Source: a virus. Taken from it: a DNA stretch of 64,000 nucleotides. Below are positions 3,821 through 30,733 of this stretch, in pieces. The notes below the pieces were generated by a model. That model was not told the DNA's origin, did not search any database, and saw only the letters and a list, made by a program, of their open reading frames with translations. Numbering within the stretch: position 1 is the first letter of the stretch; each line of letters starts with the position of its first letter. Position numbers and translations under genes: made by a program. The DNA lies in IMG/VR virus record IMGVR_UViG_3300038441_000458, positions 4,199 through 68,198 of that record; one strand, given 5' to 3'.

Positions 3821-4087
3821 GTGGAAGGAACAGAAGGCAAGGTGGAGACGAAGACCACCACGAAGCGCATCCCGGCTGAGGTCCAGATTCGGGAGTTCCA
3901 CGGACGGGCATTCTCGTCGTTCTACACGGAGGCGGCAACGATTGACGACTGCCCGATCAATAAGATCGGCAGGAGCGAGACCAGCCCGTTCATCTTCTAC
4001 CTGTTCAACAGCGGGAAGTTGGTTGCGGAAGTGGACGTCCAGCGGGCGATTATGGCGGCAGTGGCCGACCAGGAAGGGCGAGCGTAG
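3821..4087 (+). CDS. Hypothetical protein
   Basis: GAGGAG RBS, GTG start. Confidence 0.65.
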   Translation: MEGTEGKVETKTTTKRIPAEVQIREFHGRAFSSFYTEAATIDDCPINKIGRSETSPFIFYLFNSGKLVAEVDVQRAIMAAVADQEGRA

Positions 4088-4091
4088 CACC

Positions 4092-6800: not shown

Positions 6801-7382
6801 ATGAACCAGCACATCACCATCGGGTACGACGTCTTCCTGCTGGCCGACAAGTACGCGGCGCAGGATGCGAGCCGACCGGCGCTCTACACGGTCAACGTCA
6901 ACGCGCGGCAGCACCGGCTGGAAGCGGCTGACGGGTTCGTGCTCGGCACGATGCCGTTCTACCTCGGCGAGGAGGACAGCATCGACCACTCGATTCTGAT
7001 CCCGGTCCCGGCGCTGAAGAAGGTCCAGAAGCTCACGGACAAGGGCGAGTCGGTCCACGTCTGGGAAGTGGACGGAAAGTGGCACCTCGGGAAACCAGAG
7101 GACTACAGCATCGTCTTCAAGCCGGTTGACGCGATCTTCGCGAACGTGGACGAAATCATGGACCGGGCGAAGGATCACAAGGACCGGTTCGCAATCGGAC
7201 CGAAGTACCTGAAACGGCTGGCAGAGACCGCGATTGCGGAAGGCTCACCGGTCGTGTGGTTCCAGTCGAACGGTCCGACCAGCGGCATCCGGTTCGCAAT
7301 CGGAGCCGACAACGAATCGAAGCTCATCAGCGGCATGGTGATGCCGGTCGTGACACGCGGCGACATTACCCCGTTCGACTAG
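6801..7382 (+). CDS. Sliding-clamp (DnaN)-like protein
   Basis: DASRPALYTV...EAADGFVL...MVMPV resembles beta-clamp domains II-III. Confidence 0.6.
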   Translation: MNQHITIGYDVFLLADKYAAQDASRPALYTVNVNARQHRLEAADGFVLGTMPFYLGEEDSIDHSILIPVPALKKVQKLTDKGESVHVWEVDGKWHLGKPEDYSIVFKPVDAIFANVDEIMDRAKDHKDRFAIGPKYLKRLAETAIAEGSPVVWFQSNGPTSGIRFAIGADNESKLISGMVMPVVTRGDITPFD

Positions 7383-18901: not shown

Positions 18902-19091
18902 CCGGACGCGGTACATCCATCACCGGGAGTACGCAGCCGGATACGACCACGGCGTTGAGGACGGGTTCGACCTTGGCTGGCTGGCGCACGAAGCGAGCAT
19001 TGCCGACCAGGCGAGACCGTCGTGGCTGGTGGCATCCATCATCCGGCGCGCGCACCTTGTCCTGACGTGGATCAGGCGAGAACTCCTATAG
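18885..19091 (+). CDS. Hypothetical protein
   Basis: GGAGG RBS, GTG start. Confidence 0.5.
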   Translation: MKKHLDRTRYIHHREYAAGYDHGVEDGFDLGWLAHEASIADQARPSWLVASIIRRAHLVLTWIRRELL

Positions 19092-19143
19092 CAAACACTT
19101 GACGAAGGCGGTACACTTGACAACAGAAACGGAGGACCCATGA

Positions 19144-19629
19144 ATGGCGACAATCACACCAGCAGGCAAGGCGCGAGCGACCCCGGAACTTCGGGACAGG
19201 GCTCGGGCACTCGCCGACCAGGGACACACGAAGAAAGAGATTCTGGAAGAACTGAACGTTCACGAATCGACGCTGGCACGGTGGCTACCGGCGACCAGGG
19301 ATGAGAAGCGGCGCGAGGCGATGGAGGCGCTGCGCGACCAGGGAGCGACCTACGAGACCATCGGCGCGCGGTTTGGGATCACGCGCCAGGCGGTGGCACA
19401 GATACTCGGACCACGGCGCAAGGCGGAGCGCGGCATCCGGCGCAACATCAACCTCGGGGCGGATCGGTGGGACGGGTTGCGAGCGGCAGCGAAGGCGCTC
19501 GGGCTGATCTACGCAGACGGCACGAAGGAAGGACGCGGCAGCATCATCCTGTTGCTGGACGCTATCGGCAGAGGCGACGCAAGGGTGGAGTGGAACGGAG
19601 GAGCGCGAGGACTTGGGGAGCCCGAATAA
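19144..19629 (+). CDS. Tandem-HTH DNA-binding protein, candidate repressor
   Basis: HTH1 TKKEILEELNVHESTLARW; HTH2 TYETIGARFGITRQAVAQIL; GGAGG RBS. Confidence 0.8.
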   Translation: MATITPAGKARATPELRDRARALADQGHTKKEILEELNVHESTLARWLPATRDEKRREAMEALRDQGATYETIGARFGITRQAVAQILGPRRKAERGIRRNINLGADRWDGLRAAAKALGLIYADGTKEGRGSIILLLDAIGRGDARVEWNGGARGLGEPE

Positions 19630-19653
19630 GGCTCCCCAAAATTGGCCCTTACA

Positions 19654-19749
19654 AACGCTTGACAACAGGCGCGCCAGGCCCCATGATTCAGCCATGAGGT
19701 TGAGGGAGCCGGAAGGACCGGAGCCCGAAGACCGGAAGGGCAATCGACC
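19654..19749 (+). promoter_or_regulatory. Repeated promoter-leader cassette 4
   Basis: TTGACA-N17-CATGAT, AGGTTGAGG, ccgg-AAGGA-ccgg, GAAGGGCAA. Confidence 0.85.
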
Positions 19750-20016
19750 ATGACGACATGTACCCGATGCGACGGAACCGGCAAGACGATCTATCGCAAT
19801 CGCGGCGGCGTCTGCTTCAAGTGCTGGGGCACCGGCGACAGCGCGCATCCGGGTACGCCAGACGTTATCACCAGCCGGTTCGAGTACGCCGTCTCGCAGG
19901 ACCTCATTGACCGGCACTCGGCACAGAAGGCGGAGGCAACCGCGACACTGGGATACGAGCCGAAGACCGTTGGAGAAATCGAGGCGGCGACCGGCCGGGA
20001 AATGGACTGGTTCTAG
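19750..20016 (+). CDS. Zn-finger (CxxCxGxG) protein (cassette gene)
   Basis: CTRCDGTG...CFKCWGTG. Confidence 0.75.
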   Translation: MTTCTRCDGTGKTIYRNRGGVCFKCWGTGDSAHPGTPDVITSRFEYAVSQDLIDRHSAQKAEATATLGYEPKTVGEIEAATGREMDWF

Positions 20017-20071
20017 AGAACGGGAGCCCGGTTCCGGGCTCCCACCACCACGCAGGAGAGGAGCGGGATCG

Positions 20072-20332
20072 GTGACCGGACGCCAGGAAATCATCTACCT
20101 TCACGAAAGGCTATTCAGGATGCAGAAGGAAGCGCAGCACAACGGCGTTTCGCCGCATACGCTGGAAGGCTACGTCGAGACCAGGAACGCGGCGAACGCA
20201 GCCCTCAGCAACGCGGTTGAGAGCGGCACCTTCGACTTCGAGAAGTTCAGCCAGCACATGACGACGCTGCGCCAGGACGTCTTCTCGGACGGGCGGGAGC
20301 CGGACACGAACGACGAAGGAAGCGACAACTAG
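20072..20332 (+). CDS. Hypothetical protein
   Basis: GTG start after hairpin 20022-20043 and GAGGAG. Confidence 0.55.
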   Translation: MTGRQEIIYLHERLFRMQKEAQHNGVSPHTLEGYVETRNAANAALSNAVESGTFDFEKFSQHMTTLRQDVFSDGREPDTNDEGSDN

Positions 20333-20396
20333 CCGGAAGGTTGCTACCATTGCGCTACGACAACTTGTAGCGCAATGTGGCATCAGGGAGCATGAC

Positions 20397-21035
20397 GTGG
20401 CAGAGAGCAGTTGGCAGAACAGGATCACCAGGACCGGCGAGGAGGACCCGCGAGACCTCCAGGCAAACCCGGCGAACTGGCGCACGCATGGCCAGGAGCA
20501 GCGAGACATTGCCGTGGCGATGATCGGCTCGACCGGGTGGGTGCGAGACGTGATCGTCAATGAGACGACCGGGCACCTGCTGGACGGGCACATGCGCGTC
20601 GCCCTTGCCGTGGAGCGCAGGATGCCAACGGTGCCCGTCTCATACGTGGCACTGACAGAGGAGGAGGAGGCGCTGGCACTGGCGACCTTCGACCCGCTGG
20701 CAGAGTTGGCGCTCACGGACACCGGGAAGCTGAGCCAGGCGATGCGGAACGGCAACGTCGAGGATTGGGCAAGCGCCTTGCTCGGCGCGATGCGCGAGCG
20801 CGCGGGAGCACCGGACGAACTGCCGACCGGAGCGGTAGCGTTCCGCGAGGAAGCGATGGACTCCTACCTGAACGGCGACCAGCGGCAGATACACGTCCCG
20901 ATGCTGGTCGAGGAGTACGTCGTGGCAGACATGGCGATGGGCGCGATCAAGACGGCGCTCGACTTCGGGCGCAACACGGACGTGCTGCTGTGGCTGATCG
21001 AGCAGGACCAGGAAGCGCAGGCGACAACGGTATGA
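20397..21035 (+). CDS. ParB-N-terminal-domain protein, paralog 1
   Basis: NPANWRTH...VIVNETTGHLLDGHMR. Confidence 0.8.
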   Translation: MAESSWQNRITRTGEEDPRDLQANPANWRTHGQEQRDIAVAMIGSTGWVRDVIVNETTGHLLDGHMRVALAVERRMPTVPVSYVALTEEEEALALATFDPLAELALTDTGKLSQAMRNGNVEDWASALLGAMRERAGAPDELPTGAVAFREEAMDSYLNGDQRQIHVPMLVEEYVVADMAMGAIKTALDFGRNTDVLLWLIEQDQEAQATTV

Positions 21036-21718
21036 CAGAGACATGGGAGCAGCGGATTGTCGGACACGCCGAAGTTGACCCGGCGACCCTGAAGGCGCAT
21101 CCGGGGAACTGGCGCGTCCACCCGACGAAGCAGCGCAGCGCGATGGGAGACGTTCTCGGTGATCTGGGGTGGATTCAGGGCATCCTGGTCAACCAGCGAA
21201 GCGGCTACGTGCTGGACGGGCACATGCGGTTGGACATGGCGGTACGCACCGGCCAGGCGACCGTGCCAGTGACCTACGTGGACCTCAGCGATGAGGAGGA
21301 AATGCGGGTGCTGGCGACCCTGAATCCGCTCGGGGCGTTGGCCGGCACGGATGAAGGCAAGCGGGCGGCGTTGCGGGAACTGATGCACACGGAGCGCGAG
21401 AGCCTGCGGCTGTTGGCCGGGTTCGCAGCGGAGAGCCAGGAGCCAGCAGAGGACGATGACCGGGCGGCGCTGGTTCACGATCACACGGCGGCAATCGTGG
21501 CGGGCGACGATGAAGACGGCGAGGACCTTGCCGAAGACTACGGCTCATTCGAGGACCAGTACAGCGGCACGTCGATCAAGCTCATCAACTTCGTTATGAC
21601 GAAGGAGGAGTTCGAGACGATCATCACGGCGCTGGAAGTAATCGGCGAGCGCGAGAATCTGGCGAGCAACGCAGACGTGGTCCTGTGGCTGTTGGAAGAA
21701 TACGAAGTCGAACGCTGA
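21032..21718 (+). CDS. ParB-N-terminal-domain protein, paralog 2
   Basis: HPGNWRVH...ILVNQRSGYVLDGHMR. Confidence 0.8.
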   Translation: MTETWEQRIVGHAEVDPATLKAHPGNWRVHPTKQRSAMGDVLGDLGWIQGILVNQRSGYVLDGHMRLDMAVRTGQATVPVTYVDLSDEEEMRVLATLNPLGALAGTDEGKRAALRELMHTERESLRLLAGFAAESQEPAEDDDRAALVHDHTAAIVAGDDEDGEDLAEDYGSFEDQYSGTSIKLINFVMTKEEFETIITALEVIGERENLASNADVVLWLLEEYEVER

Positions 21719-21733
21719 ATATTCGTCGACGAA

Positions 21734-21829
21734 AACACTTGACAACGGACGCGCCTACCCCCATACTTCACTCATCAGGTTGAGGGAGGCGGGAAGGACC
21801 CGCCACCCGACACCGGAAGGGCAAGCACA
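21734..21829 (+). promoter_or_regulatory. Repeated promoter-leader cassette 5
   Basis: TTGACA-N17-CATACT, ggcggg-AAGGA-cccgcc, GAAGGGCAA. Confidence 0.85.
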
Positions 21830-22123
21830 ATGTTCATGGCGCAGTTCCGATCCACCGGCGAGACCGAGTTCAAGACCTTCTACGGACCAGTCTTCACCCG
21901 CACTCGGGCGCAGGAAGCAATCGACGACGCGGCACCATGCGGCCGCGAGTACCGGATCGTGGAGACACCGGAGTTGTTCAACATCGACATTCTCCCGGAG
22001 ACCATTCGCCACTACTACCCGGCAGAGCGACCGTGGGTCGTGGACCTTGGGCAAGAGAACAACTGGAACACCTTCGCCACCCGCGAAGCAGCCGAACAGT
22101 TCATGGCGGAGGAGCGATCATGA
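21830..22123 (+). CDS. Hypothetical protein (cassette gene)
   Basis: ORF behind the cassette leader. Confidence 0.75.
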   Translation: MFMAQFRSTGETEFKTFYGPVFTRTRAQEAIDDAAPCGREYRIVETPELFNIDILPETIRHYYPAERPWVVDLGQENNWNTFATREAAEQFMAEERS

Positions 22124-22800
22124 GACTGCTCGACCTCTTCTGCGGAGCCGGAGGAGCCGGAGAAGGCTACCGGCGAGCGGGATTCGATGTGACCGGCGTG
22201 GACCTGAGTGCCATGCCGGAGAACCCGCACACGTTCATCCAGGCGGATGCGCTCGACTACCTGCGCGAGCACGGACACGAATACGACGCGATCCACGCCA
22301 GCCCGCCATGTCAGGCGCACAGCATCACCCGGAACATCTGGAAGGACAACGTCGCGTGGCAGGAGGCGCACACGGACATGATCGGCGCGACGCGTGACCT
22401 GTTGGAGGCGAGCGGCAAGCCCTACGTGATCGAGAACGTTCCCGGCGCACCGCTCCGCAACCCGATCACGCTGTGCGGAAACAGCTTCGGGCTCCGCGTC
22501 TACCGGCACCGGCTGTTCGAGGCGAACTGGATGCTCATGGCGGCACCGCACGTGAAGCACGTCCATCGCGCAAGCTATGGCCGGATTCCGGTTGGCGAGG
22601 AGTTCTACACGATCAGCGGCCACTACGGCGACTTCGCCGGAGCGAGCGCGGCAATGGGCATCGACTGGATGACACATAAGCAACTGGCGCAGGCGATCCC
22701 GCCAGCCTACACGGAGCACATCGGTTTACAGTTACGGGAGTTGCTGGTAAACTTGCAAGATGAACACAAAGACATGCTCCCTGACGGGATGCGACCGTGA
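22120..22800 (+). CDS. Compact C5-cytosine DNA methyltransferase
   Basis: LDLFCGAGG (I), ASPPCQ (IV), IENV (VI), RHRLF (VIII), QAIPP (X). Confidence 0.85.
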
Positions 22801-23290
22801 ACATTACGCGAGAGGATACTGTGCCCTTCACTATCAGCGGTGGCGCACGAAAGGCGACCCCGAACACAAAGGTGATGGACGATTCAGGCCAGGTCCCGAC
22901 CCGCGTCGCCGATCAGAGCGAATGCGTTGCAGCGTTGACGAATGCGATCGAAATGTTGCAAGCAACGGCATGTGTCGGATGCATTGGGGAAGACAACAGC
23001 GCAGGGAAGCAGGAGTACCCGAGCGAAAAAAGTTCTTCGAACCAAGGAACCTCAAGAGCGGATACGTTCAGGTCCACGTTGACGGAAAATGGAAAATGGA
23101 GCACCGGGTTGTCATGGAGAGGCACCTTGGGAGACCCCTCACACCCGAGGAGACAGTTCACCACAAAAACGGACATCGAGCCGACAACAAAATTACCAAC
23201 CTCGAACTGTGGACATCAAAGCACCCTGCCGGACAACGCGCCGAGGACCTACTCGAATTCGCGCGCGAGATCATCAAGTTGTACGGATGA
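22760..23290 (+). CDS. HNH homing-type endonuclease
   Basis: Two CxxxxC...CxxH repeats; EHRVVME...[11 protein letters not shown]...NLELW; more A/T-rich than neighbours. Confidence 0.85.
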
Positions 23291-23344
23291 CGATAAGCAC
23301 ATCGGGAACCAACTGATGCGCATTCTGACCGAAGGAGCAAACGA

Positions 23345-24556
23345 ATGAGCAAGGAACTCAGCAAGGTTGGCGACCAGATCACCGTGGTCGATAGCGACGT
23401 TGCCGAAATGAAGGTGACGCTTCACCTCATGGACGGTTGGCTGTCGGTGACAGCAGAGCGTCCACACCACATCTTCCAGGTGCCAGTGCGGGCACCAGCG
23501 CTGATGCAGGCGAGCCCGGAGGAGTCCACGCTACGCCGGATTGCCGACCTCGAGAAGGCGGTGAAGGCGAACGCTGAGATGTGCGACGCGCGATCAACAT
23601 GGGCGCACGAAGCGAATACGCAACTCATGGCAAAGATCAATGCGTTGCAGCCGGAGGCATCAGCGGAGGACCAGGAGTGGACCTGCACGGCGTGTTACGG
23701 ACGCGGCGACGCCAGAGGCGAGAACGATGAAGGGTGGGAGTGCAGCGTGTGCGACGGCACCGGCGAGCAGGAGCCGGAGCCGGAGCCGATCACGGCGCGA
23801 GGACCGAAGGCGCACTCGCTGAAGACGCTGCGGCCGTTCTTCGAGGCGATCAAGCTGCGAGAGAAGACCTTCGAGATACGGAAGAACGACCGCGACTACC
23901 GGGTGGGAGACACGCTGATACTGTGCGAGTGGACCGGCGAGGCGTATACCGGGCGAATGCTGGACACCGAAGTGACCTACATCACGGACTACGACCAGCA
24001 GCCAGGCTACGTCGTGATGGGACTTCGCCTGTTGGAGCGAGGCGTTGACGACCAGGAAGCGTGGGAGGTGATTGCAGAGCGGGCGTGTGATGAATACTTC
24101 GAGCAGCCAATTTGGCATGCCCTCTCTTCGGCCGGGAAGGACTCTTGGCGGCAGGTGGCGCGCGCGGTCGTTGCAGAGGCGGTCAGGCGAGACATTGTGG
24201 TGTCGCACCCGCAACTGAAGCGCGAGCGCGAGAACGTTGCAGCGATCACCCGCGAGAAGACCATCGGCGAGTTCAAGCAGGCACCGTCCCAGCACGTTCC
24301 ACCCGAGGATCAGCCTGCGATGAATGCCGATGAGGCGGCAGACCTCCCCTCGCTGACGTGGGGGCACCTCACGGCCGCACACAATGCGTTCAAGGCGCAT
24401 CGCCAGCAGTATCCAGACGAGAACGCAGAGTGGGGCGCGATGGGCACGGCGATCCTTGCCGCCAGGCGGTACGAGCGCAACCGGAAGACCAGCGACTACC
24501 CGATCCCGGCCGTGTTCGCTGGCCCGTTCCGCAACCGGAAGGAGCCGACCGAATGA
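23345..24556 (+). CDS. Multidomain protein with CxxCxGxG Zn-finger and DUF3850/ASCH domain
   Basis: HSLKTLRPFFEAIKLREKTFEIRKNDRDYRVGDTLIL. Confidence 0.75.
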   Translation: MSKELSKVGDQITVVDSDVAEMKVTLHLMDGWLSVTAERPHHIFQVPVRAPALMQASPEESTLRRIADLEKAVKANAEMCDARSTWAHEANTQLMAKINALQPEASAEDQEWTCTACYGRGDARGENDEGWECSVCDGTGEQEPEPEPITARGPKAHSLKTLRPFFEAIKLREKTFEIRKNDRDYRVGDTLILCEWTGEAYTGRMLDTEVTYITDYDQQPGYVVMGLRLLERGVDDQEAWEVIAERACDEYFEQPIWHALSSAGKDSWRQVARAVVAEAVRRDIVVSHPQLKRERENVAAITREKTIGEFKQAPSQHVPPEDQPAMNADEAADLPSLTWGHLTAAHNAFKAHRQQYPDENAEWGAMGTAILAARRYERNRKTSDYPIPAVFAGPFRNRKEPTE

Positions 24557-25023
24557 GCGACCAGAGCAGCGGCATCATCGGATTCATCAAGGCACGCGAG
24601 CAGGCGCTCGACAACAGCAGGGCGCACACGGAGAGCCCGCTGACCAGCCACCGCGTCGACAAAATCCTTCAGGACTGCCGCATCCGGGAAGGCGAGGACG
24701 AACTGACGATGATCGTCGTCGAAGGCATCCAGCGCGTCTACGGATTCCACCCGCAGCGGTTGGCCGCGCACCGCGAGGACATTCGGCTGATGCTCGGCGA
24801 ACTGGACGATACGTTCCAGGAGGAGAAGGGCGGCTGGTCGTTCCTGAACGCCTGCATGGACCGGCGCGGCGACCAGTGGACAGACCTGCACCCGACGATG
24901 GAGGCGCTGCTGGTGATGGGCCAGGCGCTCGACCTTGGCGCGTTCATGCCAGGACGCGAGTTGTGGCCGATCCTGCCAGGCGGGATGCCGTACTACGTTT
25001 GCGCGAAGGAATGCCGACCATGA
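24553..25023 (+). CDS. Hypothetical phage protein
   Basis: Coupled ORF; GGWSFLNACMDRRGDQW. Confidence 0.7.
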   Translation: MSDQSSGIIGFIKAREQALDNSRAHTESPLTSHRVDKILQDCRIREGEDELTMIVVEGIQRVYGFHPQRLAAHREDIRLMLGELDDTFQEEKGGWSFLNACMDRRGDQWTDLHPTMEALLVMGQALDLGAFMPGRELWPILPGGMPYYVCAKECRP

Positions 25024-25892
25024 GCCAGGCACCATCAGCCGTTCGCGAGCGGGTGCTGACGAAGCGCACGCTGAACCTGAAGGACTACAAGCACCGGAGT
25101 CCGGCAGAGGAGGACTACAGCGAACTCATCACGGAGCCCTCGCTGATCTTCGATGCCGAAACCAACAATCTGGAAATCGTGTATCTGGTGCTGGACGACG
25201 ACACCACGCAGATTGCGGAGGCGTTGCAGCGCATCCGGTTCGGGAAGACGGTGAGGACCAGCGGCCTGGTGACGACCAGCCGGGTGATCGGGAACCAGCC
25301 GCGCAACCTGCCGCAGCGCGACCACTGCACGGCGAGCAGCCTTGCCACGGAGGACCCGGAGGCGCATCACGTGATCGCGTCGTATGCGGAGAAGATCAGC
25401 CAGTACTATCACGACTACAACCCGGCGCTCTACGACCGGCACCAGGAGGCGACGCAGAAGGTGCTCGACGACTGGCGGATGGAAGGGAGCGTCTTCACCA
25501 GCGGCATCATCAACCGGAACAACCCGCTGAGCTACCACTTCGACGCAGGCAACTTCAAGAACGTTTGGAGCAACATGCTGGTGCTGAAGCACGACGTGAC
25601 CGGAGGCTACCTGAGCGTCCCGGAGTACGACGTTGCGTTCGCCTTGCCGAACAACAGCCTACTGATGTTCGACGGGCAGAGCCTCCTGCACGGCGTGACG
25701 CCTATCGGACGGCACAGCGAGGACGCCTACCGCTACAGCATCGTGTTCTACAGCCTGAAGCAGATGTGGCAGTGCCTTCCGGTCACGGACGAATTGATCC
25801 GCATTCGGAAGCGGAGGACAGACCGCGAGCGAGCCCGCGCCAGGGGAGAAGTGGACCAGACGATCATCGACCAGAAGGACCGCAAGCAGTGA
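25020..25892 (+). CDS. TET/JBP-like 2-oxoglutarate Fe(II) dioxygenase
   Basis: FTSGIINRN..YHFDAGN (HxD), LLHGVTP (distal His), RYSIVFY (2OG-binding Arg). Confidence 0.8.
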   Translation: MSQAPSAVRERVLTKRTLNLKDYKHRSPAEEDYSELITEPSLIFDAETNNLEIVYLVLDDDTTQIAEALQRIRFGKTVRTSGLVTTSRVIGNQPRNLPQRDHCTASSLATEDPEAHHVIASYAEKISQYYHDYNPALYDRHQEATQKVLDDWRMEGSVFTSGIINRNNPLSYHFDAGNFKNVWSNMLVLKHDVTGGYLSVPEYDVAFALPNNSLLMFDGQSLLHGVTPIGRHSEDAYRYSIVFYSLKQMWQCLPVTDELIRIRKRRTDRERARARGEVDQTIIDQKDRKQ

Positions 25893-26773
25893 GGACGATA
25901 GACCGGGTAGAACCGGCGTTCGCCGCATTCGCCCGACACCATGTCGAGACGGGCGACATCGACCCGGCGTACCCCGTCCTTCGCTCCCTGATGGATCGTT
26001 GGGGACTTGACACGGAGGAGCGGCTGTGGCTCCTGACGCTGCACCTTGCCTACTACCAGATCGGCAGCGCGATAGTGGCGTTCGACCTGACCGGAGGACG
26101 CGCACGACGGCGCTACCCAGAGGCAATGCGCGACCTTCCCTGCAACACGGAGCGGCGCGGGCTACGCGGCGGGAAGGCGGTGGACTACATCGACATTGTG
26201 AGCCAGGCGACCAGAAACCAGGAGGCGTACTGGTTCACGGACCTTCCCGGCACACCAGAGGCGGCGTTCGACCTGACGTGGGCGAGAGCAGTAGCCTTGC
26301 CGTACAACGGGCGATGGGCGGCGTTCAAGTGGATAGACCTGCTGATGCACACGATGGACGCGCCAATCGCGATGCCGGACATGCGACTCGACCAATGCAC
26401 CGGACCGCGAGAAGGGCTCTCATGGCTCTACGACGATCCGACCGCAAGCACCAGCACGCTCACGCGACACGCTGAGGACGCGCGCGTACGGTTGAAGCAC
26501 CACGGCATCGACGTGCCGTGGGACCAGTTGGAGACCGTTCTGTGCGACTGGAACAGCCTCCGAAAGGGACGGTATTACGTCGGGCACGACATAGATAGCC
26601 AGTTGCACGACCTACGGATTGCGGCAGAGCACACCGGGCTCTACCTGGACAGCATGGAGGCGCGAGCAGAGACCTTCCCGGACGCCTATCTCGGCGAGCG
26701 GCACGGATGGGACGGTCCTGACCGGGAGCGACGCCGCACCTACCGCGACACCGGAGAGGTTGTGCTGCGATGA
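25889..26773 (+). CDS. Amino acid:DNA transferase (aGPT-PPlase clade 2-like)
   Basis: GDIDPAY, TERRGLRG, GRWAAFK..D, ETVLCDWNS..KGRYYVGHDID. Confidence 0.75.
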   Translation: MRTIDRVEPAFAAFARHHVETGDIDPAYPVLRSLMDRWGLDTEERLWLLTLHLAYYQIGSAIVAFDLTGGRARRRYPEAMRDLPCNTERRGLRGGKAVDYIDIVSQATRNQEAYWFTDLPGTPEAAFDLTWARAVALPYNGRWAAFKWIDLLMHTMDAPIAMPDMRLDQCTGPREGLSWLYDDPTASTSTLTRHAEDARVRLKHHGIDVPWDQLETVLCDWNSLRKGRYYVGHDIDSQLHDLRIAAEHTGLYLDSMEARAETFPDAYLGERHGWDGPDRERRRTYRDTGEVVLR

Positions 26774-27672
26774 ACTTGCTGGTGGTGGGAGCCGGATTCT
26801 GGGGAAGCACGGCGGCGATCATTGCCCGCGCGCACGGTCACGCGGTGACGGTGCTGGACGACGGCAACCCGCGAGGCGCGAGCCGAAACGCAGCCGGGAT
26901 GGTGCATCCAGAGTGGTACAAGCACGCCAGCGGTGCAAGCTACCGGATTCCCACGCGCTGGACACCGGCACACATCTCCGAGAGCATCGGGTGGCTAGAG
27001 ACGACATGGGGCGCAACCAGTCGAGGCGAACTGTTCAGCAGTTACCATAACCCGGAAGCGTGGAGACATAAGCCAGGACTCCGCACCCTGCACAACCCGC
27101 TGGCGATCCTGGAGTCGGCAGAGCCGGAGCGGGCGAGGATTACGCACGTCGAGCCCGCGCACCAGGGATGGGCTGCAGTGGCAGAGGACGGCCGCACGTG
27201 GGAGGCACGCACGCTCCTGCTGGCGACCGGCGCATGGACCGATGCCATACTCGAGACCAGCGGGCTTCCACCAGTCGGCGTCGTGCCCTTGCGAGGACAC
27301 GCGCTCATCATCACCGGAGACCTTGTAAGCGACTTGCCCATGACGCGGTATGTCGCACCGTATAGGCACTACACGATCCGGCCATGGTTGAAGCGTGGCC
27401 AGTGGCGAGCAGGCGACACCGTCGAGCGCACCATCAGCACCGAACGCGCAGCGGCAACACTCGGAACCTTGCGCGACTATTGCAAGACCATGATCCCGGA
27501 ACACCAGGAACAGGACGTGCTCGACGGCTATCGACCGATCCGACCAGATCACGGCATGGACGTCGAGACCATCGCCCCAGGATTGCTGGTAGCCACCGGA
27601 GGACACCGCATCGGACTCGGCGTTGCCGCTGTGGCAGCGCACGACGTACTACGACGAATGGAGACACCATGA
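26770..27672 (+). CDS. FAD-dependent oxidoreductase (DAO/glycine-oxidase fold)
   Basis: VVGAGFWG, ASRNAAG, LATGAW, GYRP, ATGGHRIG. Confidence 0.85.
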   Translation: MNLLVVGAGFWGSTAAIIARAHGHAVTVLDDGNPRGASRNAAGMVHPEWYKHASGASYRIPTRWTPAHISESIGWLETTWGATSRGELFSSYHNPEAWRHKPGLRTLHNPLAILESAEPERARITHVEPAHQGWAAVAEDGRTWEARTLLLATGAWTDAILETSGLPPVGVVPLRGHALIITGDLVSDLPMTRYVAPYRHYTIRPWLKRGQWRAGDTVERTISTERAAATLGTLRDYCKTMIPEHQEQDVLDGYRPIRPDHGMDVETIAPGLLVATGGHRIGLGVAAVAAHDVLRRMETP

Positions 27673-28214
27673 CCAGGCGACCACTCCTCTACGTGATCGG
27701 TCCCAGCGGGAGCGGCAAGAGCACGCTGGTACGACACCTGCTCGGCGACCTGACCAGGGCAGAACTGAAGGACCCCATAGGCCATATCCTCTACCGCAGC
27801 GGAGCGATCCAGTTGGGAACCAATCGCACGACCTTCAGCGGCACGGACGCCTTGCCCCTGAACGTCAACCCAAAGGCGATCCGGTTCATCCAGGAGACCA
27901 GCGCACCCGCAGTGATCGCAGAAGGCGACCGGCTGGCTAATGACAAGTTCTTCGACGCAGCGATCAAAGCCGGTTGGGACCTGACCATCGTGTACCTGAG
28001 CATCACCGACGATGAGTGCGCCAGACGGCGCTCAGAGCGTCACCACGCCATGAGCCCGTCGTTTGTGAAGGGCAGGGCAACGAAGTCCGTAAACCTCTAC
28101 AGGCGCTGGCAGGCGAGCGCCAACGTCCTCATCCTCAACGCCAACCGCGCACCAGAGGACATCGCCCGCGAACTCACCAGCCACCCGGCAGTTCGTATAG
28201 CCCGTGGAGGCTAG
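27669..28214 (+). CDS. P-loop nucleotide kinase (5-hydroxymethylpyrimidine DNA kinase-like)
   Basis: GPSGSGKST, FSGTDAL, AEGDRL. Confidence 0.75.
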   Translation: MTRRPLLYVIGPSGSGKSTLVRHLLGDLTRAELKDPIGHILYRSGAIQLGTNRTTFSGTDALPLNVNPKAIRFIQETSAPAVIAEGDRLANDKFFDAAIKAGWDLTIVYLSITDDECARRRSERHHAMSPSFVKGRATKSVNLYRRWQASANVLILNANRAPEDIARELTSHPAVRIARGG

Positions 28215-28222
28215 TCAGGCCG

Positions 28223-28265
28223 TTGACATAACCAGCAGAGGCGGGTAGCATAAACACTTGACAAC
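28223..28265 (+). promoter_or_regulatory. Promoter of the packaging genes with overlapping AACACTTGACAAC box
   Basis: TTGACA-N17-TAGCAT followed by AAACACTTGACAAC at about +1. Confidence 0.65.
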
Positions 28266-28284
28266 AGATAAGGGAGCCAGAGTT

Positions 28285-28959
28285 ATGGCACGCACCAGGG
28301 GCATGGGCCCGATCTACGATGAGGACGGAAAGCAGGTATGCGGCGGCAAGTTGCGGCACCGCGAAGGCACCTGCCGCAACCCGCCAGTGCCAGGACGGAA
28401 CCGTTGCAAGTGGCACGGCGGGAAGACACCGGTAGGCATCGCCAGCCCGCATTTCAAGCACGGCAGGACCAGCACGTACATGGACGCCTTGCCGGACAGG
28501 ATGCGCGGCGACTTCACCGCAGCGATGCTCGACCCGGACTTGCTGAGGCTCACGGAGCAGGTGGCCGTCGTGGACACCAGGCTACTGGACCTTATGCGCA
28601 CGGCGAACGTCGGCGTGACGACGCAGTTGTGGCGCGACCTGCGAGCACAGTGGCGCGCGTTCAAGGTAGCGCAGGGAGGAGGAGACGTTCCCGGCATGAA
28701 CGCGGCGATCACGGCGATGGACAGCCTGATCCAGCACGGAGCCAGCGAGGCGGCGGCATGGGACGAAATCGGGAAGCAGATCGACCGCAGCGTACGCGTC
28801 CGGGAAGCGGAGCAGAAGCGCAGGATCGCGATGGAACTCATGGTAGACATGAATAAGCTCGACAACCTGAAAGGGCAGATTCTCGGAGCGATCAAGGCTG
28901 AGGTGACAGACCGCGAGACGCTGGTGCGACTCGCCGAACGATTGTCGCAGGTGATGTGA
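28285..28959 (+). CDS. terS: Terminase small subunit (HGGxSTG-type)
   Basis: CGGK...CRNPPVPGRNRCKWHGGKT; upstream of TerL. Confidence 0.7.
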   Translation: MARTRGMGPIYDEDGKQVCGGKLRHREGTCRNPPVPGRNRCKWHGGKTPVGIASPHFKHGRTSTYMDALPDRMRGDFTAAMLDPDLLRLTEQVAVVDTRLLDLMRTANVGVTTQLWRDLRAQWRAFKVAQGGGDVPGMNAAITAMDSLIQHGASEAAAWDEIGKQIDRSVRVREAEQKRRIAMELMVDMNKLDNLKGQILGAIKAEVTDRETLVRLAERLSQVM

Positions 28960-29171
28960 TGGACCAGGACGGCGAAGACACGGAGAGTTGGCAGGTGGTC
29001 TTGCACCATCGACCCGTCTGGGAGGCGCGGGTGGAGAGCCCGTTCGACCAGAGCACGCTGAGAGGCTACGGCGAGACGAAGGAAGACGCTGAGCGGCAAG
29101 TGATGCTGAAGCTGTTCGGGAACGCAGCAGAGCACGATATTGAGCTCAGCAGGTATACGGCAGGCGAATGA
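28956..29171 (+). CDS. Hypothetical protein
   Basis: Coupled small ORF between the terminase genes. Confidence 0.5.
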   Translation: MMDQDGEDTESWQVVLHHRPVWEARVESPFDQSTLRGYGETKEDAERQVMLKLFGNAAEHDIELSRYTAGE

Positions 29172-30733
29172 GCGTCCAGTACACCGGCCTGTCGGCCGCA
29201 GAACGATTCTTGCAGGACATTGCGACCGGGCTCCTCGGCGAGGTAGACCCGAAGACCACGGCGCGCGAGCGGTTCCCGCGAGAAGTGCCCGCGTTCATCC
29301 GAACGGCGCTCGGCTTCGACATGTGGCCGATCCAGGAGGAGATCGCGCAGGCGATTGAGGACCACAGCAGCATCGCCGTCCGTTCGTGCCACGCCGCAGG
29401 CAAGAGCGCGATCAGCGCACGCATTTGCCTTGCCTTCCTGCACACCAGACCGAACAGCATCGTGGTGACGACCGCTCCCACTGCACGCCAGGTGCAGAAC
29501 ATTCTCTGGCGCTACATCAACACCAGCGCGAGGAGGAGCAGCATTCCGCTGATGGGACGCGCCTTGCAGACACGCTACGAAATCGAGTCGGACTGGTACG
29601 CACTCGGGTTCAAAGGGAGCGACGACAACAGCGACGCCTTCCAGGGCTTCCACGCTGAGGACATTCTGGTGATCGCCGACGAATCGGCAGGCGTGTCGGA
29701 GAGCGTGTTCGAGGGCATGGACAGCATCCTCACCGGCGCAGGCGCGAAGCAACTCCTGATCGGCAACCCAACCAGCGTGAGCGGCACCTTCCGGCGTGCA
29801 TTCCACGAAGCGCGAGCGGTCTACCACGGCATCAAGATCAGCGCCTACGACACGCCGAACTTCACGACCTTCGGCATCACCAGGGAGGACATGCTCAGCG
29901 GCGAGTGGAAGCAGAAGATCGCCGGGAAGACCTTGCCCTACCCGGCGCTGATCGACCCGCGTTGGGTGGCGAAACAGATCATCACGCACGGAGCGGAGAG
30001 CCCATACGTCAGGAGCCGGGTGGATGCGGAGTTCCCGGAAGACGACGGCACGACCCTCATCCCGCTGTCGTGGATCGAGCGAGCAGAGAACAACGTCGGC
30101 ACCTTGCACCAGGAGGACGCCGAACGGTTCGTAGGGATCGACGCGGCGCGCTTCGGCGACGATGAGACCAGCGTGCTGTTGCGGCACGGCATGGAGAGCG
30201 GCCCGCACGATAGCTGGAACGGGCTGGACACGATGGAGAGCGTCGGACGGGTGGTTGCCTTCCTGGACAAGTACGGGTACACGAAGGAGAACACCACTGA
30301 GGTTCGGGTGGACGACGTTGGCGTTGGCGCAGGCATTGCCGACCGGATGAAAGAACTCGGCTGGAAGGTGCGGCGCGTCAACGTGGGCGGCAAGAGCAGC
30401 GACAAGGAGAAGTGGCCGAACCTTCGACACGAACTGTGGTGGCAGTTGCGGATGCGCTACCAGGAGGACCGGATTGCCCCCATGGCCGCAGGGCGATGGA
30501 ACGCATGGCAGGGCAAGTTCGACGATGAGATGAAGGGACAATTGAGCGACATCAAGTTCCGCTACGACAGCAACCACACCAGGCCACTGATCGAGCGGAA
30601 GGAGGAGGCGAAGAAACGCGGCGTCAAGAGCCCGGATAGAGCGGAGGCGCAGATGCTGGCGTTCGGGAACTACCCGCGCGGCGAAGGCGTCCCAGGCGTC
30701 ATGGCATTCGGCACGACGAAAAGTCGACGGTAG
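29168..30733 (+). CDS. terL: Terminase large subunit
   Basis: SCHAAGKS Walker A, VIADES Walker B, IGNP, GIDAARFGDD and SPDRAEA nuclease motifs. Confidence 0.92.
   Translation: MSVQYTGLSAAERFLQDIATGLLGEVDPKTTARERFPREVPAFIRTALGFDMWPIQEEIAQAIEDHSSIAVRSCHAAGKSAISARICLAFLHTRPNSIVVTTAPTARQVQNILWRYINTSARRSSIPLMGRALQTRYEIESDWYALGFKGSDDNSDAFQGFHAEDILVIADESAGVSESVFEGMDSILTGAGAKQLLIGNPTSVSGTFRRAFHEARAVYHGIKISAYDTPNFTTFGITREDMLSGEWKQKIAGKTLPYPALIDPRWVAKQIITHGAESPYVRSRVDAEFPEDDGTTLIPLSWIERAENNVGTLHQEDAERFVGIDAARFGDDETSVLLRHGMESGPHDSWNGLDTMESVGRVVAFLDKYGYTKENTTEVRVDDVGVGAGIADRMKELGWKVRRVNVGGKSSDKEKWPNLRHELWWQLRMRYQEDRIAPMAAGRWNAWQGKFDDEMKGQLSDIKFRYDSNHTRPLIERKEEAKKRGVKSPDRAEAQMLAFGNYPRGEGVPGVMAFGTTKSRR

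What the first reader, a model, noticed from the sequence alone, without database searches (positions are those of the whole stretch)
25020..28214. Four-gene post-replicative DNA hypermodification pathway (TET/JBP dioxygenase, amino-acid:DNA transferase, FAD enzyme, kinase)
Seen: four translationally coupled genes with HxD...H...R dioxygenase motifs, ETVLCD..S..KGRYYVGHDID transferase motifs, a DAO-type FAD fold and a P-loop kinase (GTDAL, EGDRL), placed directly before the terminases. Established: in ViI, M6 and PaMx11, a 5-hmU DNA kinase and an amino-acid:DNA transferase add Gly/Ser to 5hmU; in PaMx11 a flavin enzyme trims it to 5-aminomethyl-U before acetylation. Those phages make 5hmU with a dUMP hydroxymethylase. 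Here no hydroxymethylase, DNA polymerase or acetyltransferase is visible in the window. Inference: the hydroxymethyl handle is made on DNA by the dioxygenase, either T to 5hmU or, given the C5-MTase at 22120, 5mC to 5hmC. The product could be an unacetylated aminomethyl base, possibly an undescribed amino-modified cytosine.
Basis: partly seen in the sequence, partly recalled or inferred. Interest (0 to 1): 0.85.

Follow-up and report, generated by a model that had tools for sequence, protein, structure and literature searches.

The report
Phage thymine hypermodification gene cassette
An uncultured soil phage carries a published type of gene set that chemically decorates thymine in its own DNA after replication, here in a rare combination of known parts, so it is a modest addition rather than a new system.

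Summary
Window 25020-28214 encodes four overlapping genes: a TET/JBP dioxygenase, an amino-acid:DNA transferase (AADT), a PaMx11-gp47-like flavin lyase and a P-loop DNA kinase. They lie just before the terminase genes of a complete 68-kb phage genome that has no dUMP hydroxymethylase, PolA/PolB polymerase or GNAT acetyltransferase.

In the closest relative this pair abuts the dioxygenase directly, with no methyltransferase between. In 66 of 66 evaluable related viral loci a ParB-like gene lies just upstream of the dioxygenase. This fits the published ParB-dependent phage thymine dioxygenases, which are linked to kinases and AADTs (O'Toole 2026; Lee 2022).

The C5-methyltransferase lies in a 3.3-kb inserted segment that relatives lack, so the cytosine route is unlikely (about 6%).

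Most likely pathway: T to 5hmU, then phosphorylation, then an amino-acid adduct, then 5-aminomethyl-dU left unacetylated.

One open point: the transferase has Asp where glycine transferases have a donor-selecting Lys, so the donor may not be glycine.

The same layout occurs in cultured phages (Phelemich, MO526; Kozie, where the locus begins at the dioxygenase and shows no ParB). Verdict: new member of a known kind.

The parts
20397..21035 (+). ParBa: ParB-like protein (212 aa) with an N-terminal ParB domain and no recognisable HTH; candidate activator of the dioxygenase
   Evidence: PHROG ParB-like families (phrog_620 5.1e-12). No Pfam family at E<=0.01. 32% identical to ParBb. 51% identical to the matching gene of L003.
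21035..21718 (+). ParBb: second ParB-like paralogue (227 aa); candidate activator
   Evidence: phrog_620 2.2e-14 and phrog_723 4.8e-9 over residues 11-225. Its C-terminus resembles Rhodococcus phage Tonitrus gp1 'ParB-like' (E 1e-5). 53% identical to the L003 gene whose stop overlaps the L003 dioxygenase start.
21739..21767 (+). Promoter-like site (TTGACA-17-CATACT) at the head of the inserted segment; probable start of the transcript that runs through to the kinase gene
   Evidence: Consensus match only. Genes from 21830 to 28214 are tightly packed or overlapping.
21830..25023 (+). Accessory inserted segment, not core: hypothetical 21830-22123, C5-MTase-like 22120-22800, HNH endonuclease 22760-23290, DUF3850/ASCH protein 23345-24556, hypothetical 24550-25023
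   Evidence: Absent between ParBb and the dioxygenase in L003. MTase: phrog_363 8.7e-40, PF00145 sub-threshold at 20.1 vs 22 bits; motifs FCGAGG, PPCQ, ENV and RHR read. HNH_3 5.8e-9. DUF3850 1.1e-24.
25020..25892 (+). TET/JBP-family Fe(II)/2-oxoglutarate dioxygenase (5mYOX), predicted thymine dioxygenase
   Evidence: PF12851 3.6e-17. H173/D175/H224/R238 invariant. AF2 model pLDDT 75.7; best PDB folds are CcTet, NgTET1, TET2 and CMD1. 38-residue helical tail after conserved Cys252.
25889..26773 (+). Amino-acid:DNA transferase (AADT, formerly aGPT-Pplase2)
   Evidence: PF18724 1.8e-18. Same PHROG 6364 as PaMx11 gp46. BLASTP to gp46 7e-7. PDB 25qc_A 'Amino acid:DNA transferase domain' 1.9e-6. 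Residue maps.
26770..27672 (+). FAD-dependent lyase/oxidase of the PaMx11 gp47 (NGTO, MnmC1-like) type
   Evidence: PF01266 8.4e-25. Same PHROG 16743 as gp47. BLASTP to gp47 8e-15 over the full length. Best PDB sequence hits are 8z2o/8z79 'Flavin-dependent lyase'. W51, P179, Y180, R181 and R242 are kept.
27669..28214 (+). P-loop DNA kinase (5-hmU DNA kinase type)
   Evidence: PF18751 7.8e-26. Same PHROG 800 as PaMx11 gp49. BLASTP to gp49 4e-8.
28223..28251 (+). Promoter-like site (TTGACA-17-TAGCAT) that separates the cassette from the terminase genes
   Evidence: Consensus match only.

Best explanation
This is a post-replicative thymidine hypermodification module made of two published halves.

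Front end (inferred from family and context). The TET/JBP-family dioxygenase oxidises thymine in phage DNA to 5-hydroxymethyluracil. The two ParB-like paralogues at 20397-21718 probably assist it, as in the ParB-dependent T-dioxygenase subclass.

Back end (inferred from homology to reconstituted PaMx11 enzymes). The P-loop kinase phosphorylates 5hmU. The AADT replaces the phosphate with the amino group of a free amino acid; glycine is the default guess. The gp47-like flavoenzyme oxidatively cleaves the adduct and leaves 5-aminomethyl-2'-deoxyuridine. The genome encodes no acetyltransferase or other recognisable tailoring enzyme, so the free aminomethyl base would be the end product.

The phage has no polymerase or hydroxymethylase of its own, so all steps must act on DNA made from ordinary dTTP. 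The module sits just before the terminase genes. The C5-methyltransferase 2.2 kb upstream is an accessory insertion and not part of the pathway.

My odds: thymine route about 0.8, ParB involvement about 0.7, 5-aminomethyl-dU as final base about 0.5. Nothing here was measured chemically.
For: Gene identities.

No pre-replicative route or other tailoring enzyme in the complete genome. PF00303, PF00476, PF00136, PF00583, PF13508, PF04055, PF00291 and PF12224 gave no hit at E<=1. The positive control worked. Twenty early-region proteins show a DnaB-type and an SF2-type helicase but no polymerase.

ParB linkage:
- Closest relative L003 (identity: dioxygenase 73%, AADT 71%, FAD 63%, kinase 51%) has the order ParBa-ParBb-dioxygenase-AADT-FAD-kinase, and the ParBb stop overlaps the dioxygenase start.
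- Of 81 IMG/VR loci with dioxygenase relatives, 66 have at least 700 nt upstream. All 66 carry a ParB-like ORF on the same strand ending within 1.5 kb upstream.
- ParBa and ParBb have no HTH hit, whereas a separate canonical ParB_N+HTH_ParB gene lies at 3942-4991. This matches the published description of 5mYOX-associated ParBs.
- The dioxygenase has the C-terminal extension described for the ParB-dependent subclass.
- Complex prediction of ParBa + ParBb + dioxygenase gave weak support only: score 0.53 (runs 0.53, 0.75, 0.51), best of 3 controls 0.00. The mark was reached by 58 of 80 solved complexes and 2 of 110 mismatched pairs, but scores of 0.60 or under came from only 7 of those 80 and from both mismatches that passed. 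Runs agree in at least 44% of contacts; partner pLDDT at least 82.

Back end:
- The AADT keeps catalytic Cys247 and the Glu243/Thr244 pair, which in the gp46 crystal hold the metal bound to thymine O4. It also keeps D24, E92, R94, R97, W146, K150 and D262 (12 of 22 mapped residues).
- The FAD enzyme keeps Trp51 and Tyr180 (base stacking and wedge) and Arg242 (proposed to bind the adduct carboxylate).
- Gene order AADT-FAD-kinase equals PaMx11 gp46-gp47-(gp48)-gp49.

Literature:
- O'Toole 2026 PMC13229309 (abstract, sections 5, 11-13): the ParB-dependent subclass is 'consistently linked' with P-loop kinases and AADTs.
- Lee 2022 PMC8989533 (passages, section 21): some contigs have TET_JBP in place of the hydroxymethylase.
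- Wen 2024 PMC11472151 (sections 14 and 22, passages): gp46/gp47 structures and reaction scheme.
Against: No chemistry was measured for this phage or for any actinophage relative. My searches found none in print.

In this window the ParB pair lies 3.3 kb from the dioxygenase, not next to it.

The ParB N-domains are also 50% identical to the N-terminal domains of 'DNA methylase' genes in Stenotrophomonas and Xanthomonas phages. A link to the neighbouring methyltransferase therefore cannot be excluded.

I could not place the dioxygenase in the published Clade C1 tree because the reference sequences are in closed supplements. According to the O'Toole abstract, phage T-dioxygenases also oxidise 5mC in vitro.

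The AADT has Asp at the position of YuA Lys248. That is one of two residues shown to decide glycine versus diamine donors (PMC13458397, section 38), so glycine is not secure. Seven other gp46 contact residues differ: Y47H, H95G, R141P, F173C, D175G, K261H and E265S.

In the FAD enzyme Gln182 (contacts thymine O2/N3) is His, and Tyr244 falls in a gap.

PaMx11 gp49 itself does not hit PF18751 at E<=0.001, so the kinase link rests on PHROG 800 and a BLASTP E of 4e-8.

An unrecognised tailoring enzyme among the many orphan genes cannot be excluded.
Confidence: 0.6

Rival explanations
1. Same thymine route, different donor and therefore a different product. The TET-linked AADT clade attaches something other than glycine, such as another amino acid or an amine. 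The flavoenzyme then either trims it to 5-aminomethyl-dU anyway or yields another base.
For: The residue after the catalytic Cys is Lys in 19 of 20 AADT ORFs scored in hydroxymethylase- or FAD-linked loci with no dioxygenase hit (rows not de-duplicated; one further locus showed no motif) and in YuA. It is Asp in 9 of 10 distinct TET-linked AADTs, including the window, and Asn in the tenth. PMC13458397 (sections 36 and 38) shows that this Lys and Tyr257 coordinate the glycine carboxylate. It also shows that changing these two positions re-programs donor choice, and says many donors remain unidentified.
Against: D24, E96, K159, Y257 and D262 of the YuA donor pocket are all kept. The neighbouring His256 is Arg here and could supply the lost charge. 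Arg242 of the lyase, proposed to bind a carboxylate, is kept. Any alpha-amino acid adduct cleaved on the donor side would still give 5-aminomethyl-dU.
Confidence: 0.25
2. Cytosine route. The C5-methyltransferase at 22120 makes 5mC. The dioxygenase makes 5hmC. The kinase, transferase and flavoenzyme then build an amino-modified cytosine.
For: The MTase-like gene has the C5-MTase motifs I, IV (PPCQ), VI (ENV) and VIII. It lies on the same strand, three genes before the dioxygenase. That spacing would meet Burke 2021's screen of no more than five genes apart (section 5). Burke 2021 raised a kinase and aGPT-PPlase acting on TET-made 5hmC as a possibility. The O'Toole abstract reports in vitro 5mC oxidation by phage T-dioxygenases.
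Against: The MTase sits in a segment absent from the closest relative, which has the full ParB-to-kinase module. A window-type MTase was found in 0 of 81 related loci, and a C5-MTase motif in 1 of 81. It was found in 0 of 5 related viral records, two of them at least 97% complete (the query is found in its own genome). Its best homologues (52-54% identity) are in mycobacteriophages such as Jasper; I did not check those records for the cassette. In Burke 2021, clade C TETs gave no 5hmC with cognate or strong heterologous MTases. The AADT keeps the Glu/Thr-metal site that contacts thymine O4. All three downstream enzymes group with thymidine-pathway enzymes.
Confidence: 0.06
3. The ParB-like pair is unrelated to the dioxygenase (for example it serves the methyltransferase, or acts as a nuclease or partition factor), and the dioxygenase works alone.
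For: The pair is separated from the dioxygenase by 3.3 kb and a promoter-like site. Its N-domains resemble the ParB domains fused to DNA methylases. O'Toole 2026 could not trap a dioxygenase-ParB complex (section 13). Some Clade C1 members lack ParB.
Against: ParB lies upstream in 66 of 66 evaluable relatives, and is translationally coupled to the dioxygenase in L003. Cultured relatives Wooper, Phelemich, Tonitrus and MO526 also carry ParB before the dioxygenase. The weak-support complex score is 0.53 against 0.00 in controls.
Confidence: 0.12

Closest known systems
Pseudomonas phage PaMx11 gp46-gp49 pathway to 5-acetylaminomethyl-dU (Lee 2022 PMC8989533; structures in Wen 2024 PMC11472151)
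   Same: AADT, flavin lyase and kinase are full-length homologues in the same order and the same three PHROGs. The catalytic Cys, the metal ligands, the FAD motif and Trp51/Tyr180/Arg242 are kept.
   Different: Here there is no dUMP hydroxymethylase, no phage polymerase and no gp48 acetyltransferase; a TET/JBP dioxygenase plus ParB supplies the 5hmU. Identity is only 21-27%. The donor-pocket Lys248 is Asp and lyase Gln182 is His. Of the 21 viral loci found with the flavin-lyase alignment other than L003's own contig, 0 carry a dioxygenase and 17 carry a hydroxymethylase.
ParB-dependent phage T-dioxygenases, e.g. 5mYOX176/ParB176 (O'Toole et al. 2026, PMC13229309)
   Same: A TET/JBP enzyme with a C-terminal extension. 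The ParB homologue has an N-domain and a C-domain but no HTH. The neighbourhood holds a P-loop kinase, an AADT and terminase genes.
   Different: Two ParB paralogues rather than one. The paper's main text does not contain the terms 'two ParB', 'paralog', 'tandem' or 'heterodimer' (supplements unseen). The ParBs are displaced 3.3 kb by an insertion. A flavin lyase is present; the terms FAD and oxidoreductase do not occur in that main text. Activity is untested here.
ParB/Tet-JBP/aGPT-Pplase2/5-hmU kinase modules at the left end of cultured actinophage genomes: Tonitrus (PMC11955845), Gordonia phage Wooper, Mycobacterium phages Phelemich and Reprobate, Microbacterium phages Kozie and MO526
   Same: Same genes in the same order, directly before the terminase. 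Phelemich, MO526 and Kozie also carry the oxidoreductase between AADT and kinase. All share Asp after the catalytic Cys.
   Different: Only 32-38% identity. Tonitrus and Wooper lack the flavoenzyme and have another hypothetical gene after the kinase. None has the MTase/HNH/ASCH insertion. In Kozie and MO526 these genes are annotated mostly 'hypothetical', and in Phelemich three of the five (gp1-gp3) are.
C5-MT/TET cytosine hypermodification clusters (Burke et al. 2021, PMC8256090)
   Same: A TET-family dioxygenase within five genes of a C5-MTase-like gene on the same strand. The paper also notes a kinase and aGPT-PPlase in some such contigs.
   Different: The proven 5mC clades A and B pair with a conserved adjacent MTase and glycosyltransferases. 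Here the MTase is not conserved with the dioxygenase and the conserved partner is ParB.
JBP1/2 and base J of kinetoplastids
   Same: Post-replicative oxidation of T to 5hmU by a TET/JBP dioxygenase, followed by further decoration.
   Different: Base J is glucosylated, not aminated. It is eukaryotic, with no kinase or AADT step. This comparison is recalled and supported by the introductions of the papers read.

Membership tests
TET/JBP (5mYOX) dioxygenases, Pfam PF12851 | Profile match above the curated cut-off | tested here: met
   62.5 bits against a cut-off of 34.9, E 3.6e-17
TET/JBP (5mYOX) dioxygenases, Pfam PF12851 | HxD...H iron triad and the Arg that binds 2-oxoglutarate | tested here: met
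   H173, D175, H224 and R238 are invariant in 8 of 8 aligned relatives. Their assignment to the triad follows the family motif and is not shown by a structure of this protein.
TET/JBP (5mYOX) dioxygenases, Pfam PF12851 | TET-type jelly-roll fold | tested here: met
   AF2 model pLDDT 75.7, pTM 0.75. The listed Foldseek PDB hits down to rank 26 are all CcTet, NgTET1, TET2 or CMD1; the best is 7vpn_B, E 2.4e-11, TM 0.58. A sequence search of the PDB found nothing at E<=1.
ParB-dependent T-dioxygenase subclass (O'Toole 2026, Clade C1) | Co-localised ParB homologue with N-terminal and C-terminal domains but no DNA-binding domain | tested here: met
   ParBa and ParBb lie 3.3 kb upstream here, directly adjacent in L003, and upstream in 66 of 66 evaluable relatives. 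No HTH family at E<=0.01.
ParB-dependent T-dioxygenase subclass (O'Toole 2026, Clade C1) | C-terminal extension beyond the last conserved Cys | tested here: met
   38 residues follow invariant C252, with predicted helices at 255-274 and 281-287. Not compared with ParB-independent enzymes, whose sequences I did not have.
ParB-dependent T-dioxygenase subclass (O'Toole 2026, Clade C1) | Placement inside Clade C1 with the characterised enzymes; T oxidation that needs ParB | not testable with these tools
   The reference sequences are in closed supplements, and activity needs an experiment. The complex prediction gave weak support only (0.53 against controls at 0.00).
Amino-acid:DNA transferase (AADT / aGPT-Pplase2, PF18724) | Profile match; catalytic Cys247 and metal ligands Glu243/Thr244 (PaMx11 numbering) | tested here: met
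   67.6 bits against 26.2. The ETxLC motif is kept. PDB 25qc_A 1.9e-6.
Glycine-specific AADT (PaMx11 gp46 / YuA gp10 type) | Donor pocket D24, E96, K159, K248, Y257, D262 (YuA numbering), with K248 and Y257 deciding the glycine preference | tested here: not met
   Five of six are kept, but K248 is Asp. Asp occurs in 9 of 10 distinct TET-linked AADTs, against Lys in 19 of 20 AADT ORFs scored in loci with no dioxygenase hit.
PaMx11 gp47-type flavin-dependent lyase (NGTO) | FAD GxGxxG motif; Trp51 and Tyr180 base cage and wedge; Arg242 for the adduct carboxylate | tested here: met
   All are kept. Full-length BLASTP 8e-15. Same PHROG 16743. Best PDB sequence hits are 8z2o/8z79.
PaMx11 gp47-type flavin-dependent lyase (NGTO) | Gln182 (thymine O2/N3 contact), Tyr244, Lys268 | tested here: not met
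   Q182 is His, Y244 falls in an alignment gap and K268 is Arg. The Q182A mutant had only modest effect in Wen 2024.
5-hmU DNA kinase (5-HMUDK) | P-loop kinase homologous to a characterised 5-HMUDK and adjacent to an AADT | tested here: met
   Walker A GPSGSGKST. BLASTP to PaMx11 gp49 4e-8. Same PHROG 800. PF18751 91 bits, although gp49 itself does not hit PF18751. Substrate not testable.
C5-MT/TET 5mC hypermodification clusters (Burke 2021, clades A/B) | A C5-MTase conserved next to the dioxygenase across relatives | tested here: not met
   Window-type MTase in 0 of 81 loci, C5-MTase motif in 1 of 81. In 0 of 5 related records. Absent from L003.

The most novel reading that the evidence does not exclude
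The TET-linked transferases form a separate clade with a charge-reversed donor pocket (Lys248 to Asp). They may attach a donor other than glycine, so that this phage and cultured relatives such as Phelemich, Reprobate, Kozie and MO526 carry a thymine adduct not yet described. Alternatively these phages may carry free, positively charged 5-aminomethyluracil as the terminal base. In PaMx11 that base is only an intermediate, and I found it in 4 papers of the library, all on the known PaMx11-type pathways. Either base would be made wholly after replication and gated by a two-paralogue ParB activator.
Probability: 0.3. Interest if true: 0.6.

Novelty: new member of a known kind. Interest (0 to 1): 0.35.

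Why it matters
The value is practical rather than conceptual.

It joins two separately published halves in one compact operon: ParB-dependent thymine dioxygenases and the PaMx11 glycine/flavin-lyase pathway. The same layout sits under mostly 'hypothetical', 'oxidoreductase' or 'adenylate kinase' labels in cultured phages of Mycobacterium smegmatis and Microbacterium. The end product could therefore be read directly by LC-MS.

If the end product is free 5-aminomethyluracil or a new adduct, that would add a natural DNA base. It would also give a fully post-replicative enzymatic route from plain T to an amine handle in DNA.

The Lys-to-Asp split between hydroxymethylase-linked and TET-linked transferases is a testable lead on donor specificity.

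The analysis also corrects database labels. Homologues of this dioxygenase are annotated 'queuine tRNA-ribosyltransferase', and kinase homologues carry 'terminase small subunit' (PaMx11 gp49, PHROG 800) or 'adenylate kinase' labels.

Tried and rejected
- Megablast of the 3.2-kb region against 50,697 phage records found no match. Relatives are protein-level only.
- A sequence search of the PDB with the dioxygenase and with the methyltransferase found nothing. The kinase gave only generic P-loop hits.
- BLASTP of ParBa against Tonitrus gp1 was not significant. BLASTP of ParBb against the 206-aa gene before the MO526 dioxygenase was also not significant. The MO526 ParB is the gene before that one.
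- Public reads. All 17 runs are contigs of soil metagenomes. Four runs laid on 19000-29500 gave only pieces of 150-600 nt. They show no modification signal and no usable bridge across the insertion. The single joint 21097 to 24915 (one contig, side 21 nt) is too weak to count.
- My first count of 10 loci with two ParB genes included L004, where the second hit is an overlapping frame. The count is 9.
- The hypothetical gene 24550-25023, which overlaps the dioxygenase start, was considered as a pathway member. It was rejected because its homologues are in large proteobacterial phages and it is absent from L003.
- PMC12716707 mentions thymine hypermodification only in connection with nucleotide-metabolism genes and is not relevant.
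- Placing the dioxygenase against the characterised 5mYOX enzymes failed because their sequences are in supplements that are closed. Those supplements (O'Toole Fig. 3, Dataset S10; Burke SI Fig. S2, contigs 72, 80 and 86; Lee Fig. 2) might already show this contig or this gene combination.
- I queried earlier scan notes for this genome only, not for relatives.

Full report
WHAT IS THERE

The window is 64,000 of the 68,198 bases of one viral record. The record has direct terminal repeats and a CheckV completeness of 100%. It is 63% G+C, and by my GC3-based ORF filter nearly all long ORFs are on the + strand.

The finding's coordinates match four ORFs whose starts overlap the preceding stops by 4 nt:
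- 25020-25892: Tet_JBP, PF12851, 62.5 bits against a cut-off of 34.9.
- 25889-26773: ADDT (formerly aGPT-Pplase2), PF18724, 67.6 against 26.2.
- 26770-27672: DAO-type FAD enzyme, PF01266, 88.5 against 27.9.
- 27669-28214: Ploopntkinase3, PF18751, 91.2 against 27.

The iron and 2-oxoglutarate residues of the dioxygenase (H173, D175, H224, R238) are invariant in 8 of 8 aligned relatives. An AlphaFold model (pLDDT 75.7) finds only TET-family structures among the listed hits down to rank 26. A small-terminase-like gene and a terminase-large-like gene follow.

THE BACK END IS THE PaMx11 PATHWAY MINUS THE ACETYLTRANSFERASE

PaMx11 gp46 (glycine:DNA transferase), gp47 (flavin-dependent lyase) and gp49 (5-hmdU DNA kinase) were reconstituted by Lee et al. 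2022 (PMC8989533; passages and section 21 read). gp46 and gp47 were crystallised by Wen et al. 2024 (PMC11472151; outline, passages, sections 14 and 22 read).

The three window proteins align with them over their full lengths: E 7e-7, 8e-15 and 4e-8, at 21-27% identity. They fall in the same three PHROGs, 6364, 16743 and 800. They lie in the same order, with only the gp48 position empty. The best PDB sequence hits of the flavoenzyme are the gp47 entries 8z2o and 8z79.

Mapped on the crystal-defined residues:
- The transferase keeps the catalytic Cys247, the Glu243/Thr244 pair that holds the metal bound to thymine O4, and D24, Y51, E92, R94, R97, G144, W146, K150 and D262. That is 12 of 22 mapped positions.
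- The lyase keeps the FAD motif and W51, P179, Y180, R181 and R242. Q182 is His, K268 is Arg and Y244 falls in a gap.

The complete genome shows none of the following at E<=1: GNAT (PF00583, PF13508), radical SAM, PALP-type PLP enzyme, amidoligase, thymidylate-synthase-family hydroxymethylase, or PolA/PolB polymerase. Controls: PF18724 is found by the same route, and gp48 hits PF00583 at 7.5e-15. The handle must therefore be made on DNA, and the pathway should stop at the gp47 product, 5-aminomethyl-dU. This conclusion is inferred, not measured.

ORFs 20397-21035 and 21035-21718 are paralogues, 32% identical. They match ParB-like PHROGs but no HTH family. A separate canonical ParB_N+HTH_ParB gene lies at 3942-4991.

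The closest relative is L003, an IMG/VR contig. Its identities to the window are: dioxygenase 73%, transferase 71%, flavoenzyme 63%, kinase 51%, ParBa 51%, ParBb 53%. Its gene order is ParBa-ParBb-dioxygenase-transferase-flavoenzyme-kinase, and the ParBb stop overlaps the dioxygenase start.

An alignment-based scan brought the set to 81 IMG/VR loci with dioxygenase relatives of 40% identity or more. I scored them with offline HMMs built from the window and the first relatives. Of the 66 loci with at least 700 nt upstream, all 66 have a ParB-like ORF on the same strand ending within 1.5 kb of the dioxygenase. Nine have a tandem pair; a tenth was a frame artefact.

This matches the ParB-dependent subclass of phage thymine dioxygenases defined by O'Toole et al. 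2026 (PMC13229309; abstract and sections 5, 11, 12 and 13 read). In that subclass the ParB has an N-terminal domain and a C-terminal domain but no obvious DNA-binding domain. The dioxygenase carries a subclass-specific C-terminal extension; here 38 residues follow the conserved Cys252. The neighbourhood is 'consistently linked' with P-loop kinases and AADTs.

A complex prediction of ParBa + ParBb + dioxygenase gave weak support only. The score was 0.53 (runs 0.53, 0.75, 0.51) against a best control of 0.00. The mark is reached by 58 of 80 solved complexes and 2 of 110 mismatches, but a pass at 0.60 or under is shared by only 7 of those 80 and by both mismatches that passed. Runs agree in at least 44% of contacts, and the partner's pLDDT is at least 82.

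THE METHYLTRANSFERASE IS AN INSERTION, SO THE CYTOSINE VERSION IS UNLIKELY

Between ParBb and the dioxygenase the window has 3.3 kb that L003 lacks. It holds a promoter-like site (21739-21767), a small ORF, the C5-MTase-like gene, an HNH endonuclease that overlaps the MTase's end, a DUF3850/ASCH protein and a hypothetical gene.

The MTase has motifs I, IV, VI and VIII and may well be active. However:
- Its type occurs in 0 of 81 related loci, and a generic C5-MTase motif in 1 of 81.
- It is absent from 5 of 5 related viral records, including ones 97% and 100% complete (the query is found in its own genome).
- Its best homologues (52-54% identity) are in mycobacteriophages; I did not check those records for the cassette.

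Burke et al. 2021 (PMC8256090; passages and section 5 read) had already proposed a kinase and aGPT-PPlase acting on TET-made 5hmC. They found no 5hmC for clade C enzymes. Lee 2022 (section 21) had already described contigs in which TET_JBP replaces the hydroxymethylase beside thymidine-hypermodification genes.

HOW RARE IS THIS COMBINATION

Among the 81 dioxygenase-anchored loci, a kinase occurs in 11, an AADT in 5 and the flavoenzyme in 1, which is L003.

A flavoenzyme-anchored scan found 22 loci. One is L003's own contig. Of the other 21, none has a dioxygenase, 17 have a hydroxymethylase and 2 have a gp48-like GNAT.

GenBank isolates do carry the same layout before their terminase:
- Phelemich genes 1-6; its 'oxidoreductase' gp4 hits my flavoenzyme HMM at 1.1e-12.
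- MO526 and Kozie.
- Wooper and Tonitrus, which lack the flavoenzyme.

Wooper and Tonitrus are already annotated as thymidine hypermodification systems (PMC11955845, passages read). I found no paper reporting the chemistry of any of these.

AN OPEN POINT: THE DONOR

The 2026 study of a diamine transferase (PMC13458397; passages and section 38 read) defines the YuA donor pocket as D24, E96, K159, K248, Y257 and D262. It shows that the K248 and Y257 positions decide glycine versus diamine use.

The window's transferase keeps five of the six but has Asp at K248. Across everything fetched, that residue is Lys in 19 of 20 AADT ORFs scored in hydroxymethylase- or FAD-linked loci with no dioxygenase hit (rows not de-duplicated) and in YuA. 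It is Asp in 9 of 10 distinct TET-linked ones. The donor may therefore differ from glycine. The conserved Arg242 of the lyase still suggests an adduct with a carboxylate, and donor-side cleavage of any alpha-amino-acid adduct would still give 5-aminomethyl-dU.

VERDICT

Best reading: a ParB-assisted thymine dioxygenase feeds a PaMx11-type kinase, transferase and flavin-lyase pathway that ends, unacetylated, at 5-aminomethyl-dU.

Odds:
- Thymine route: 0.8
- ParB involvement: 0.7
- 5-aminomethyl-dU as end product: 0.5
- Cytosine route: 0.06

This is a new member of a known kind. It is useful mainly because cultured look-alikes make the chemistry directly testable. Closed supplements of the three key papers might already list this contig or this gene combination.

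Noticed in passing
L004:7926-11599: A relative with 63% dioxygenase identity, from a 97%-complete 59-kb viral record, has ParB then dioxygenase then a 236-aa ORF with a SAM-methyltransferase-like motif (DLGGNIG), then terS-like and TerL genes. It has no kinase, AADT or flavoenzyme. This may be a different way of tailoring 5hmU, such as O-methylation.
   Followed up: no
L006:3900-11400 (and near-identical L007): A 327-kb viral contig with terminal repeats carries two dioxygenase paralogues (52-54% identical to the window's), ParB-like genes, an AADT and a kinase in one neighbourhood.
   Followed up: no
L003, L027, L030, L033, L044, L047, L049, L055, L067 (upstream of the dioxygenase) and window 20397-21718: Tandem pairs of ParB-like genes precede the dioxygenase in 9 of 66 evaluable relatives and in the window. 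This suggests a two-paralogue (possibly heterodimeric) activator. The terms 'two ParB', 'paralog', 'tandem' and 'heterodimer' do not occur in the main text of O'Toole 2026.
   Followed up: partly
window 22760-23290: An HNH endonuclease gene (HNH_3, 5.8e-9) overlaps the last 41 nt of the methyltransferase gene. Together with the cassette-type promoter at 21739, this makes the 21718-25020 segment look like mobile or accessory cargo.
   Followed up: partly
window 23345-24556: A 403-aa protein with a central DUF3850/ASCH (PUA-like) domain and CxxC pairs upstream of it lies between the methyltransferase and the dioxygenase. PUA-like domains often read modified bases (recalled). It is absent from L003.
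   Followed up: no
window 20397-21718 versus Stenotrophomonas/Xanthomonas phages (H100-H103): The first ~115 residues of ParBb are 50% identical to the N-terminal ParB domain of genes annotated 'DNA methylase' in proteobacterial phages. The same ParB module thus appears to be shared between methylase fusions and dioxygenase partners.
   Followed up: no
GenBank and PHROG labels: Likely misannotations. PHROG 6059 and gene 2 of many cluster-B mycobacteriophages are labelled 'queuine tRNA-ribosyltransferase' although they are homologues of this Tet_JBP dioxygenase (PHROG 6059 is also the best hit of Kozie gene 1, which itself has a weak Pfam Tet_JBP hit). PHROG 800 and PaMx11 gp49 are labelled 'terminase small subunit', and several actinophage genes 'adenylate kinase', although they match the 5-hmU DNA kinase.
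   Followed up: partly
L088, L089, L094, L097-L101, L104, L105: In many hydroxymethylase-linked loci 1.3-2.5 kb of unassigned coding sequence lies between the flavin-lyase gene and the kinase gene, and a gp48-like GNAT was found in only 2 of 21 loci. Other tailoring enzymes may act on 5-aminomethyl-dU there.
   Followed up: no
window 3942-4991 and 6801-7382: A canonical ParB (ParB_N + HTH_ParB) and a weak sliding-clamp-like ORF (DNA_pol3_beta_2, 3.3e-4, below cut-off) lie in a genome in which no PolA- or PolB-family polymerase was found. The phage probably relies on the host replisome.
   Followed up: no
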